Shown here one piece after another: positions 1-3,000 of a stretch of DNA of 64,000 nt (the first letter of the stretch is position 1; each line of letters starts with the position of its first letter). This stretch comes from Escherichia coli O157:H7 (GTDB lineage Bacteria; Pseudomonadota; Gammaproteobacteria; Enterobacterales; Enterobacteriaceae), in the NCBI RefSeq assembly GCF_013167455.1, contig NZ_CP038328.1, one strand, 5' to 3'. The position numbers were made by a program.

Positions 1-3000
1 TAAGATTGTCCTTTGCCTCAACCGGCGTGTGCGCCCTGCCGCCACCTTTACCCATAATGTTCCTCTCAATTGGTATTATTAATCGCAGTGATAGGATATT
101 GCACAGCTATTGCGCGATATCATCAGAACGCTGTTTGTTACCCTGTAACCAGCAAGCTCAGTCTGTTAACGGAATTAATGAGGGTTTTATGAAATGTAAA
201 ATCATTGCTGCCATTGCCATGCTGACAGCAGCATCATGCGGATACGCAGCAGAACAGGAAGTCCCAATGAACCTTGTCAGTGCTGACGGAAAAGAAGTCA
301 GCATTGGAAAAATAACCATTCAGGAGACCCCCTACGGTCTGCTGTTCACACCAGCCCTTCACTCTCTGTCTGAAGGCATTCATGGTTTTCATGTGCACGA
401 AAAAGGAAATTGCGCCCCGGCACTGAAAGACGGAAAACCGGTCGCAGCATTATCGGCTGGCGGTCACTTTGACCCGAAAAACACCGGCAAACATCTTGGC
501 CCCTGGTCTCCGGATGGACACCTGGGCGACCTCCCTGCGCTGTTCGTGACGCATGACGGAAAAGCGAACTACCCGGTCCTGGCCCCGAGACTGAACTCAT
601 TAAAAGAGATTAAAGGGCGTTCTCTCATGCTTCATGCTGGCGGTGATAACCATCATGACCATCCGGAGCCCCTGGGCGGTGGTGGTGCGAGAATGGCCTG
701 CGGCATCATTCAATAATCAGTCAGGTAAGGGGCGGGCCCCTTACCTTTATTCCTCAGGACGATAAATCCTTTCTCCCTGAAAAGAACGGCACATCCTCCC
801 TCTCTGAGTTAATGTTTTTGTCGTGACATAAGAATAATTCCTTACACTCAATCTTCGTAACGCTCCCGCAGTTCCTGTCCGTGAGCACTGCGGGATTTTT
901 TCGCTTTTATGCCTGCCGCCCGATAACCACCACCTTCCCGTCACCGCCTTCATCACGGGTACTGATGTCCTGGGAGATTCGCCGGGAGCCAACCAGCATT
1001 TCACCGTAAGGCACCGGCATCGGGTTCCCCTGGGCAATCATGTTATCCAGCGAGGAAAAGTACGTGTTCTGTCTGCCGTTATCCGTTGCGCGGTAATCCG
1101 GTGTTTTTGCCTTCGGGGCCAGCATCTGGGCCACACCGCCCAGAATCATGCTGGCTCCAAGTGAAAACAGCATCGTGGTGGCAGAAAAACCACCGGCTGC
1201 CAGGGCTGAACCCCATAACGCCATTGATGCCCCGGCAGTGAAGAACGACCCCACGATGGCCGCCGCCCCCAGCACAATCTGCAGTCCACCCTTTCCGGCC
1301 CCGGCCAGTCGCGGCACAATGTGGATGACCGTTCCCTCACCCAGCTGTTCGTGAAGACGGGCGTACACCGCCTCCGGTGCCGTGTCATCACCGGCAATAC
1401 GTATCTGGTACCAGCCTTCGTTCATCTGACGGCGGAATCCCGGCATCTGCATCGACAGGGCACGGATGGCTTCCGCTGCCGTGTTCACATACAGGCTGAG
1501 GCGGCGGCCAAATCGTTGTAAATCCCCGTGAAGGCAGATACGTGCCAGTGGCGGTGACGCCAGGCTGAATGCGTTCGTCGTTGCCATTTTTCGGAATACC
1601 TCTCCCGTTTACTCAGTTGTTCAGGCAGATGGTGAAGCAGTTCACCGTTGCCGCAGTATATGGCGGCATGATTGGCCACCGATGCGCCAAAGCAGCACAG
1701 CAGGATATCGCCAGGCTGTGCGGAAGGCAGGGAAATCCTGTAAAAACCAGTCGCCTCCATATTGTCCAGGTACAGGTTCTGACCATTGCGCCACCAGTCA
1801 TCCTCACGCTCAAAATCCGGCATATCAGTCCCCGCCAGATGATAAGCATCCCGGAACAGCGTGTAACAGTCCGTCACCCCGTGCTCAAAGCGCCGTCCTG
1901 TCAGATGTGGCACACAGCGGAATTTGTGAATGTCACCCCGGCAGACCAGCCACCAGGGCAGTGCGCTTTTTATCTGCAGCCGCCGGTCAGCCTCGCTCAG
2001 CCAGGGCAGCCCACCGGGATGACTGTGGACCAGTGCCACAATCTCCCCCTGCATCTCTGCCCGCAGCCAGTCTTCCGGTGCGATACGAAAATACGCCTCC
2101 GGCTCTGCAGAAATATTCACACAAGGGATATACCACTCCCCCTCCGGCGTGCTTATCACGAAGCCGCACGACTCCGCAGGCGCACACCGCCGGGCATGCG
2201 CCAGAATCGCTGATTCAGTCTGTGTCATAAACCGGGATTTACTGCGAAAGTTTATTAATGGAAAGGAAACCGCCAAAATTAGCCACCATGCTGCGCATCT
2301 CACACCCGCGCATGCACTTGCTGCATCTGTCCTTACGGATATCCGTGGTGGGGTTGTCGAACTCATCCGCCACTGCCCCGCCCGTGTAACCACACTCATC
2401 AGAGCGGTAGGTCCACATACAGGTATTCGCCAGCATAATGCGACCGGGAAACAGCGCTCCGTCCGTCTCCGTCGGTGTTGCCAGCACAAACGAGGCTGTC
2501 ATGGCCGTCAGCTCTGACATCTGCTCCACCACCCAGCGGTCTCTCAGCTCCTGCTCCGGGTCCGCTTCCGGATTGCCCGCCACAAAATTCACCGCATCCA
2601 GAAAACGGGCATACACCCGGCGGCGGACCACCGTGGCACCCACCAGGCTCTGCAAATCCTCCGCCATCCCGGTGACCAGACCAAACAGATTGGACACCGT
2701 CAGCGACGGTCTGGCACTGCTGCCCTTCCCGTTCATCTCAAAACCGCTGCCGTCAATCGGGTATACCTGATATTGCCGCCCCTGCCAGGTGACCGCCTCC
2801 CCTTTTTCATTCAGCTCATTACAGAAAAAATACCGCTCACCGCCCTGCGCCGTCAGGTCGATTTCCCAGAGTACCACCCGCGGTGACTGCTCTGATTTAA
2901 CCGACTCGTTCAGACTTTCTTCGTGAATATCCTGCATCAGTTCACCACCTGCTTAAACTCCGCGCTGAACTCAACGCGCAACATCCCGACCCGCGCAGAC

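What the first reader, a model, noticed from the sequence alone, without database searches (positions are those of the whole stretch)
1..906. sodC lies where host-specificity gene J would be expected
In lambda, I is followed directly by J. Here the DNA downstream of I carries an oppositely oriented Cu/Zn superoxide dismutase gene with its own hairpin terminator. The window edge prevents seeing whether J follows further left.
Basis: inference. Interest (0 to 1): 0.35.

Follow-up and report, generated by a model that had tools for sequence, protein, structure and literature searches.

The report
Known prophage sodC gene between I and J
This is the well-known prophage-borne superoxide dismutase gene (sodC-F) of E. 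coli O157:H7, an extra gene slotted between tail genes I and J; J is not missing, because it starts at base 55 of the window just beyond sodC, so the finding is ordinary.

Summary
An intact Cu,Zn superoxide dismutase gene (189-716, + strand) with its own terminator (723-751) lies downstream of tail gene I (907-1587, - strand), in the opposite orientation. The inference that J might be displaced or unseen is wrong. J's ATG is at window 55 on the - strand, and its first 18 codons ([18 protein letters not shown]) run off the left edge. An O157:H7 genome identical to window 1-1827 has a complete 1157-aa gpJ there, followed by lom and the tail fibre genes.

The 745-bp sodC cassette (56-800) is a classic phage "moron". 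It occurs in 546 of 5426 complete E. coli genomes. Its protein matches the published description of SodC-F1 (D'Orazio 2008). Salmonella phage Fels-1 carries sodCIII in the same I-J slot.

One detail I did not find in the papers I checked: the cassette replaced the promoter half of a PasB/EcOnc22-family small RNA gene that normally occupies the I-J spacer. The promoterless sRNA body and terminator (806-902) remain just downstream of sodC.

Novelty: already known. Interest: low.

The parts
1..55 (-). 5' end of tail-tip / host-specificity gene J (ATG at 55-53, first 18 codons; the rest lies beyond the left edge of the window)
   Evidence: Translation is [18 protein letters not shown]. It coincides with the annotated gpJ start in L001, L004 and Sakai ECs_1121. 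The full J in L004 is 1157 aa with the FNIII-A_GpJ, Phage-tail_3, Ig_J, Phage_Tail_Tip and Ig_GpJ_C domains, and is 79% identical to the lambda J N-terminus.
56..800 (+). sodC cassette (moron): 745 bp that replace 132 bp of the I-J spacer found in sodC-less relatives
   Evidence: Homology to sodC-less phage JLK-2012 runs through J exactly to its ATG and resumes at window 801. GC is 0.505, against 0.58-0.60 in the flanking tail genes. The cassette occurs in 546 of 5426 complete E. coli genomes at 723 places, nearly all at 99% identity or more.
56..188 (+). sodC upstream region. Best promoter-like site is TTGGTA (70-75), 16-bp spacer, TG-extended TAGGAT (92-97). Shine-Dalgarno GAGGG at 180-184. 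The - strand of 56-70 carries J's own ribosome-binding site (GAGAGGA).
   Evidence: The relaxed scan scores the best site only 8 of 12, plus a TG. The strict scan finds none. Promoter activity of the 299 bp upstream of sodC-F is published (PMC2569942). GC is 0.398.
189..716 (+). sodC (SodC-F1 type): 175-codon precursor of a periplasmic, partly lipid-anchored Cu,Zn superoxide dismutase
   Evidence: Pfam Sod_Cu E=3.9e-32. Identical to WP_000649829.1. Lipobox AASC at residues 14-17 and all metal ligands present. Best solved relatives are H. ducreyi, Yersinia and Salmonella SodCI SodC structures, E about 1e-62. T at window 523 gives Leu112, the SodC-F1 allele of PMC2569942.
723..751 (+). Intrinsic terminator of sodC (10-bp stem with 6 G-C pairs, loop GCGG, then TTATTCCT)
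   Evidence: Terminator scan. The T tract is interrupted, so some read-through is conceivable; that is inference.
806..902 (+). Body and terminator of a PasB/EcOnc22-family small RNA gene, without its promoter (terminator stem 865-871/888-894, U tract 896-901, ending 5 nt before the stop codon of I)
   Evidence: A covariance model built only from the E2348/69 PasB locus, the Sakai Sp15 spacer, and phages 1720a-02 and Stx2_14040 hits window 806-902 full length at 59.6 bits, E=6e-9. PasB coordinates come from table S6 of PMC8550237 and lie in the I-J spacer of E2348/69 PP6. The -35 and -10 seen in sodC-less spacers are replaced, and there is no promoter-like site in 700-830.
907..1587 (-). Tail assembly gene I (stop codon at 907-909), intact
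   Evidence: Pfam Lambda_tail_I E=1.5e-16. Protein identical to that of L004.

Best explanation
Window 1-906 is the I-J junction of an Sp4-like lambdoid prophage of E. coli O157:H7 that carries the known lysogenic-conversion gene sodC-F.

A 745-bp cassette (56-800) sits between the stop of I and the start of J. It contains a sodC upstream region, the sodC gene and an intrinsic terminator, and it points against the late tail operon. Because it is a separate, convergent transcription unit, it can be expressed from the repressed prophage while the tail genes are silent.

The product is exported by its signal peptide. It is partly released into the periplasm and partly lipid-anchored through the AASC lipobox. 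There it dismutates superoxide outside the cytoplasm and helps the lysogen resist host-derived oxidants.

J is not replaced. It starts at window 55 and continues beyond the left edge.

Steps shown here: gene identities, gene order and orientation, cassette boundaries, the terminator, and the distribution across genomes.
Steps taken from the literature (PMC2569942): promoter activity, RpoS-independent expression in log phase and anaerobiosis, dimeric high-activity enzyme, partial lipid modification, and the H2O2 sensitivity of mutants.
Step inferred: that the orientation and the separate promoter are what allow expression in the lysogen.
For: - sodC identity and intactness.
- J start in the window.
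- Complete gpJ, then lom and tail fibres, in a genome identical over window 1-1827.
- Same order in Sakai Sp4 and in an Stx2a phage.
- 538 genomes carry the whole J-start, sodC, I, K stretch; 546 carry the cassette.
- Clean boundaries against sodC-less phage JLK-2012.
- Terminator.
- Lower GC than the flanks.
- Fels-1 has sodCIII in the same I-J slot and orientation; Gifsy-2 has sodCI at another tail-gene junction (between the lom homolog that follows M, and L), also antisense.
- Published function and expression of SodC-F1/F2: PMC2569942.
Against: - No convincing sigma-70 promoter is predicted upstream of sodC. The strict scan gives 0 hits and the best relaxed hit is 8 of 12, so the promoter rests on the published lacZ fusion.
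- The window's own J cannot be read beyond codon 18. Its completeness is inferred from identical or near-identical genomes.
- The prophage is defective: its major capsid gene is truncated. The phage-side relevance of the layout in this particular copy is therefore moot.
Confidence: 0.95

Rival explanations
1. sodC has replaced or displaced J, so this prophage lacks a host-specificity gene at the normal place (the reading implied by the first reader).
For: Only the raw impression that the DNA right after I is not J.
Against: J's ATG and first 18 codons are at 55..1. A complete J follows in a genome 100% identical over 1-1827, in Sakai Sp4 and in Stx2a phages.
Confidence: 0.02
2. sodC and the PasB-like segment now form one composite unit. 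Read-through of the weak first terminator (723-751) would extend the sodC mRNA to the second terminator (865-901). This would give sodC an Hfq-binding 3' UTR, or release a 3'UTR-derived PasB-like sRNA whose level follows sodC transcription.
For: - The sRNA body and its strong terminator with a U6 tract are retained intact on the same strand, 90 nt downstream of sodC.
- Its own -35 and -10 are gone, and no substitute promoter is seen.
- The tail of the first terminator is an interrupted T tract.
- Family members with their own promoter are real Hfq-dependent sRNAs: PasB (PMC8550237) and EcOnc22 (PMC4104026).
Against: - No Hfq-CRAC orphan peak is listed near the Sp4 or Sp10 sodC-I spacer in Sakai. 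Identical copies and the paper's filters could hide one.
- All cassette copies are 99% identical or more, so conservation says nothing about selection.
- The segment may simply be an inert remnant.
Confidence: 0.2
3. The sodC copy is a decaying passenger in a defective prophage and is not functional.
For: The prophage is defective (truncated capsid gene; pseudogene flags in relatives).
Against: The ORF is intact with all catalytic residues. The protein is identical across the genomes I checked, and the cassette is 99% identical or more at nearly all of 723 places. The SodC-F1 enzyme was purified and is active, and mutants are H2O2-sensitive (PMC2569942).
Confidence: 0.03

Closest known systems
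SodC-F1/SodC-F2 of E. coli O157:H7 (Sakai Sp4 ECs_1120 sodC_1; prophages named CP-933R and CP-933V for EDL933 in D'Orazio et al. 2008, BMC Microbiol 8:166)
   Same: Same gene. It has the Leu112 (F1) allele, a 175-aa precursor, the AASC lipobox and the same flanks: I on one side and the J start on the other.
   Different: Nothing of substance. Sakai Sp4's copy has C instead of T at window 523, giving the Pro (F2) allele.
sodCIII of Salmonella phage Fels-1
   Same: A Cu,Zn-SOD gene in the I-J spacer, antisense to the tail genes.
   Different: Only 60% amino-acid identity. The flanking non-coding DNA is unrelated. Fels-1 keeps a lambda-like hairpin next to J and has no PasB-like element, so its capture looks independent.
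sodCI of Salmonella phage Gifsy-2
   Same: A prophage-borne, antisense, self-contained sodC moron within the tail module. Published expression and enzyme properties parallel those of SodC-F (PMC2569942).
   Different: It sits between the lom homolog that follows M, and L, not between I and J. It is 59% identical.
Phage morons as defined for lambdoid phages (for example lambda lom and bor; Juhala/Hendrix concept, recalled from my own knowledge)
   Same: An extra gene between two genes that are adjacent in relatives, with its own terminator and lower GC than its neighbours.
   Different: It is convergent with the late operon rather than co-oriented, unlike lom in this same prophage family.
PasB (EPEC E2348/69) and EcOnc22/23/24 (Sakai Sp15, Sp14, Sp11) prophage sRNAs
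   Same: Window 806-902 lies in the same I-J spacer, on the same strand, with the same CCCGCAG...CUGCGGG-U6 terminator abutting the stop of I and the same conserved AAUCUUC core.
   Different: The window copy lacks the conserved promoter, which the sodC cassette replaced. It is only about 67% identical to PasB itself.

Membership tests
Cu,Zn superoxide dismutase (SodC, Pfam PF00080) | Sod_Cu domain above the curated threshold over its full length | tested here: met
   111.9 bits against a cutoff of 28.9; profile positions 3-133 of 133.
Cu,Zn superoxide dismutase (SodC, Pfam PF00080) | Cu ligands (3 His plus the bridging His), Zn ligands (His, His, Asp), the disulfide cysteines and the catalytic Arg | tested here: met
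   Motifs HGFHVH 65-70, GNC 73-75, GGHFDP 91-96, GKH 100-102, DGHLGD 109-114, LHAGGDN 148-154 and ARMAC 167-171. Aligned to solved SodC structures. The mapping to human SOD1 numbering is from my own knowledge.
Cu,Zn superoxide dismutase (SodC, Pfam PF00080) | N-terminal export signal (periplasmic enzyme) | tested here: met
   Hydrophobic N-terminus with lipobox AASC at 14-17 and GYA|A at 18-21. This was a motif inspection only, not a predictor. The published experiment shows periplasmic and lipid-associated fractions (PMC2569942).
Cu,Zn superoxide dismutase (SodC, Pfam PF00080) | Superoxide dismutase activity | not testable with these tools
   Published for SodC-F1: 19380 U/mg (PMC2569942).
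Phage moron (lysogenic-conversion cassette) | Extra DNA between two genes that are adjacent in related phages, with clean boundaries | tested here: met
   745 bp replace 132 bp, bounded by J's ATG and window 801. Lambda has only a 60-bp spacer.
Phage moron (lysogenic-conversion cassette) | Own terminator | tested here: met
   Hairpin and T-rich tail at 723-751.
Phage moron (lysogenic-conversion cassette) | Own promoter | tested here: inconclusive
   The strict scan gives 0 hits. The best relaxed site is 8 of 12 with a TG extension at 70-97. A published lacZ fusion of the upstream 299 bp is active.
Phage moron (lysogenic-conversion cassette) | Base composition different from the flanking phage genes | tested here: met
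   Cassette GC 0.505 (upstream part 0.398), against 0.602 for I, 0.583 for K-H and 0.574 for J.
Phage moron (lysogenic-conversion cassette) | Expressed from the repressed prophage | not testable with these tools
   Published: the protein is detected in log, stationary and anaerobic cultures of lysogens.
Lambda gpJ tail-tip / host-specificity protein | N-terminus homologous to gpJ, on the tail-gene strand downstream of I | tested here: met
   The 18 codons at 55..1 equal the start of annotated gpJ. That gpJ is 79% identical to lambda J over 332 residues.
Lambda gpJ tail-tip / host-specificity protein | Complete gene with all gpJ domains in this very genome | not testable with these tools
   The window ends at codon 18. 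In L004, which is identical over window 1-1827, J is 1157 aa with all gpJ Pfam domains.
PasB/EcOnc22 prophage sRNA family | Located in the I-J spacer, antisense to the tail genes, with the terminator abutting the stop of I | tested here: met
   Window 806-902 (+); I stop codon at 907-909. Same layout as PasB in E2348/69 PP6.
PasB/EcOnc22 prophage sRNA family | Sequence and structure match to a family model not trained on window-like copies | tested here: met
   59.6 bits, E=6e-9, model positions 1-92 of 92. The model is shallow: 4 sequences and 8 base pairs.
PasB/EcOnc22 prophage sRNA family | Own promoter immediately upstream (TTCACA, 16-bp spacer, TATAAT-like) | tested here: not met
   The promoter is present in the PhiR5_1, E2348/69, JLK-2012, 1720a-02 and Stx2_14040 spacers. 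In the window it is replaced by cassette sequence, and there is no site scoring 7 of 12 or better in 700-830.
PasB/EcOnc22 prophage sRNA family | Expressed, Hfq-dependent RNA of about 83-85 nt | not testable with these tools
   Shown for PasB and EcOnc22 in the literature. No peak is listed next to sodC in Sakai Sp4.

The most novel reading that the evidence does not exclude
The sodC cassette did not land in neutral spacer. It precisely replaced the promoter half of a PasB/EcOnc22-family sRNA gene, from J's ATG to just after the sRNA's -10. The retained sRNA body and terminator may now be expressed as the 3' end of the sodC transcript. That would make a 3'UTR-derived, Hfq-binding sRNA whose level is tied to an oxidative-defence gene. 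I did not find this I-J spacer described as a swap site for morons and sRNAs in the papers I read.
Probability: 0.2. Interest if true: 0.4.

Novelty: already known. Interest (0 to 1): 0.12.

Why it matters
As posed, it does not matter much. The I, sodC, J layout is the annotated structure of O157:H7 prophage Sp4 and its relatives, and SodC-F has been characterised biochemically and genetically. It remains a tidy textbook example of a virulence-associated moron inside a tail operon.

The only point with some forward value is that the I-J spacer of these phages normally encodes an Hfq-dependent sRNA (PasB/EcOnc22 family), and that sodC replaced that sRNA's promoter. This suggests the spacer is a recurrent cargo slot. 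It also raises a testable question: is the leftover sRNA body silent, or co-expressed with sodC?

Tried and rejected
- **Rfam scans.** Window 1-2500 at E<=1 gave only chance-level hits: STnc400 at 23 bits against an 80-bit cutoff (terminator resemblance only) and a snoRNA. The whole-window gathering scan found nothing in 1-906.
- **AgvB/AsxR anti-sRNA idea.** I considered that the conserved hairpin at 865-901 belonged to these. I rejected it because they lie near the Q/stx region, have different sequences, and the window has no AgvB hit.
- **Strict sigma-70 scan of 1-1700.** It found 0 promoters. The relaxed scan gives only weak candidates, so I do not claim a promoter position.
- **Shared non-coding flanks between the Fels-1 sodCIII cassette and the window cassette.** None found; only the coding region aligns, at 70%.
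- **Exact match of the published AgvB sequence in Sakai v2.** This failed. A fuzzy match was needed to derive the coordinate shift of about +136.
- **Pas sRNA preprint (Zhu, Shabalina, Storz 2026).** Its main text has no occurrence of 'sodC' or 'superoxide'.
- **Large collection scans.** I ran no metagenome, viral-contig or protein-database scans, because the annotated collections already answered the question.

Full report
**What is in the sequence**

Window 1-6000 carries a lambda-type tail module on the - strand:
- H at 3263-5842 and M at 2937-3266.
- L at 2239-2937 (Pfam Phage_tail_L).
- K at 1584-2228 (JAB plus NlpC/P60).
- I at 907-1587 (Pfam Lambda_tail_I, E=1.5e-16).

On the + strand, 189-716 encodes a 175-aa protein. 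It matches Pfam Sod_Cu over the whole domain (111.9 bits, cutoff 28.9, E=3.9e-32). Its closest solved relatives are bacterial periplasmic SodC enzymes, including Salmonella SodCI (E about 1e-62). All Cu and Zn ligands, the disulfide cysteines and the catalytic Arg are present, as is an N-terminal signal with the lipobox AASC. A 10-bp G+C-rich hairpin with a T-rich tail follows at 723-751. The descriptive part of the finding is therefore correct and far beyond chance.

**Where J is**

The reverse strand of 55..1 reads ATG GGT AAA..., which translates to [18 protein letters not shown].

Megablast of window 1-2300 against 5426 complete E. coli genomes finds 538 genomes carrying the whole stretch. 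Every one of the 25 best hits listed is annotated C40 peptidase (K), tail assembly protein (I), sodC, and a phage tail tip protein (labelled gpJ in most).

Window 1-1827 is 100% identical to O157:H7 strain 17B6-2. There the gpJ CDS starts exactly at the position equivalent to window 55. It is 3474 bp (1157 aa), has all gpJ Pfam domains, and is 79% identical to lambda J over lambda's first 332 residues. It is followed by lom, two tail fibre genes, tccP2, espV, tRNA-Ser and hyaA.

Sakai prophage Sp4 has the same order: ECs_1118 (I), ECs_1120 (sodC_1), ECs_1121 (J, 3474 bp), lom, and so on. An Stx2a phage also has it. The window's own J beyond codon 18 cannot be read.

**What the sodC segment is**

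Comparison with the sodC-less phage JLK-2012 defines the cassette. Homology at 96% runs from the tail fibre genes through all of J up to its ATG. It breaks there and resumes at 99% at window 801. So 745 bp (window 56-800) stand in place of 132 bp.

The cassette brings J's ribosome-binding site on the - strand, an AT-rich sodC upstream region (GC 0.398), sodC itself and its terminator. Overall GC is 0.505, against 0.58-0.60 for the tail genes. It occurs in 546 of 5426 complete genomes at 723 places, with up to 5 copies per genome and almost always 99% identity or more.

Extra DNA between otherwise adjacent genes, with its own terminator and an atypical composition, is the definition of a phage moron. 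The promoter is the one element I could not show in silico. The strict scan gave 0 hits, and the best relaxed site is TTGGTA, a 16-bp spacer, then TG-extended TAGGAT at 70-97, scoring 8 of 12.

**What is already known about it**

D'Orazio et al. 2008 (PMC2569942) describe two nearly identical prophage genes in O157:H7, sodC-F1 and sodC-F2. They differ by a T/C at nucleotide 335 (Leu versus Pro). The window has T at 523 and is therefore the F1 allele; Sakai Sp4 has C. The paper reports the following:
- A fusion of the 299 bp upstream of the gene to lacZ was used to measure expression, which did not depend on RpoS.
- The protein accumulates in log phase and anaerobically, unlike chromosomal SodC.
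- It becomes relatively more abundant in bacteria inside Caco-2 cells.
- It is dimeric, about 3-fold more active than SodC, and more stable.
- It is processed partly by signal peptidase I (after residue 20) and partly by signal peptidase II at the AASC lipobox.
- Deletion mutants are more sensitive to H2O2.

The mechanism is thus a self-contained unit, convergent with the late operon, that is expressed in the lysogen and exports a Cu,Zn-SOD to the periplasm and membrane.

Salmonella provides parallels. Fels-1 carries sodCIII between I and J in the same antisense orientation. It is 60% identical, its flanks are unrelated, and it keeps a lambda-like hairpin next to J. Gifsy-2 carries sodCI at a different tail-gene junction, between the lom homolog that follows M, and L; it is also antisense. 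The layout is therefore known, recurrent and annotated.

**An extra detail found while defining the boundaries**

The stretch shared with sodC-less phages (801-906) is not an inert spacer. In sodC-less relatives the I-J spacer is about 240 bp, against 60 bp in lambda. On the strand opposite the tail genes it has a conserved layout:
- a near-consensus promoter (TTCACA, 16-bp spacer, TATAAT in PhiR5_1 and E2348/69);
- a transcribed segment of about 90-100 nt;
- a CCCGCAG...CUGCGGG hairpin with a U6-8 tract that ends a few bases before the stop codon of I.

The EPEC sRNA PasB (83 nt, Hfq-dependent) is recorded in table S6 of PMC8550237 at NC_011601 1466343-1466261, with probe AATCCCGCAGTGATCGCGGAGCT. 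It maps exactly to this element in the I-J spacer of prophage PP6.

I built a covariance model from the PasB locus, the Sakai Sp15 spacer, and phages 1720a-02 and Stx2_14040, using no window-like sequence. It hits window 806-902 full length at 59.6 bits, E=6e-9, and the same element next to sodC_1 in Sakai Sp4. It finds nothing in Fels-1, Gifsy-2 or lambda.

The Hfq-CRAC peaks EcOnc22, 23 and 24 of Tree et al. 2014 (about 85 nt, destabilised without Hfq; PMC4104026 Table S2) lie on the antisense strand of the I-J spacers of Sakai Sp15, Sp14 and Sp11. In all three, the peak start (older genome version) lies 122-124 nt before the model hit start in NC_002695.2. Two independent landmarks give the coordinate shift between the two genome versions: AgvB1 gives +136, and the EcOnc42/EcOnc21 homology gives +135. 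With that shift the peaks fall inside the model hits. I therefore infer that EcOnc22-24 and PasB are one family. The papers I read do not state this equivalence.

In the window, the sodC cassette ends one base after where the sRNA's -10 hexamer would be. The -35 and -10 are gone, the body and terminator are kept, and no substitute promoter-like site exists in 700-830.

Two readings remain open. The remnant may be silent. Alternatively it may be transcribed by read-through of sodC's interrupted-T terminator, as the 3' end of sodC mRNA. No EcOnc peak is listed near the Sp4 sodC-I spacer. That is weak negative evidence, because identical Sp4 and Sp10 copies and the paper's filters could hide a peak. 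I put the co-expression idea at about 0.2.

**Verdict**

sodC, its orientation and its terminator are confirmed; the claim that J is hidden by the window edge is not.
sodC does occupy the position right after I, but J follows it immediately and is not missing.
- The feature is already known: SodC-F1 in an Sp4-like defective prophage.
- Interest is low. The only forward-looking element is the relationship between the sodC moron and the PasB/EcOnc22 sRNA slot.

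Noticed in passing
window 806-902 (+); compare L011 1462-1559 (-), L012 1637-1727, L017 768-858, L018 818-908: A PasB/EcOnc22-family sRNA body and terminator sit between sodC and I, but the family's conserved promoter has been replaced by the sodC cassette. 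PasB (EPEC) and EcOnc22/23/24 (Sakai Sp15, Sp14, Sp11) appear to be one family that occupies the I-J spacer antisense to the tail genes. I did not see this equivalence stated in the papers I read.
   Followed up: yes
L003 5905-5940, and the equivalent positions in L007, L008, L009, L011 and L012 (absent from the window): sodC-less I-J spacers carry a second conserved hairpin (CAGGCACC..GGTGCCTG) about 50 nt before the J start. Its T run is on the tail-gene strand, so it is terminator-like just upstream of J. Loop and stem changes between phages keep the pairing. Lambda and Fels-1 have a different, symmetric hairpin (AAAACCGCCC.GGCGGTTT) at the same place. Its function was not examined.
   Followed up: partly
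window 1828-2656 (genes K and L): All 28 mismatches to the best-matching genome within the first 4 kb cluster in this stretch, while 1-1827 and 2657-4000 are identical. This looks like a recombination patch exchanged between related prophage copies.
   Followed up: partly
window 7370-8140: The major capsid gene is reduced to an 88-codon N-terminal fragment (7430-7696, -) that directly abuts the major tail gene V (6708-7370). The rest of E and the genes normally between E and V are missing. This matches the 'incomplete' capsid annotation in relatives and the short 267-bp head-protein gene in Sakai Sp4, so the prophage is defective.
   Followed up: partly
window 523: T here gives Leu112, the SodC-F1 allele of D'Orazio 2008. 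Sakai Sp4's sodC_1 has C, which gives Pro, the F2 allele.
   Followed up: yes
window 20814-20930, 23460-23976, 28701-28875, 37612-37663: Rfam gathering-level hits elsewhere in the prophage:
- an ALIL frameshift pseudoknot (an IS element inside the prophage);
- STnc100 next to three tRNAs, with no room for stx genes before the 616-aa ORF at 21387-23237 (a non-Stx lambdoid prophage);
- a sok antitoxin RNA;
- DicF.
   Followed up: no
window 21293-21383 (+) and 23374-23459 (+): Weak hits (20.9 bits, E=0.08) of the PasB-family model. They probably reflect only terminator hairpins with U tracts. The second lies beside STnc100.
   Followed up: no
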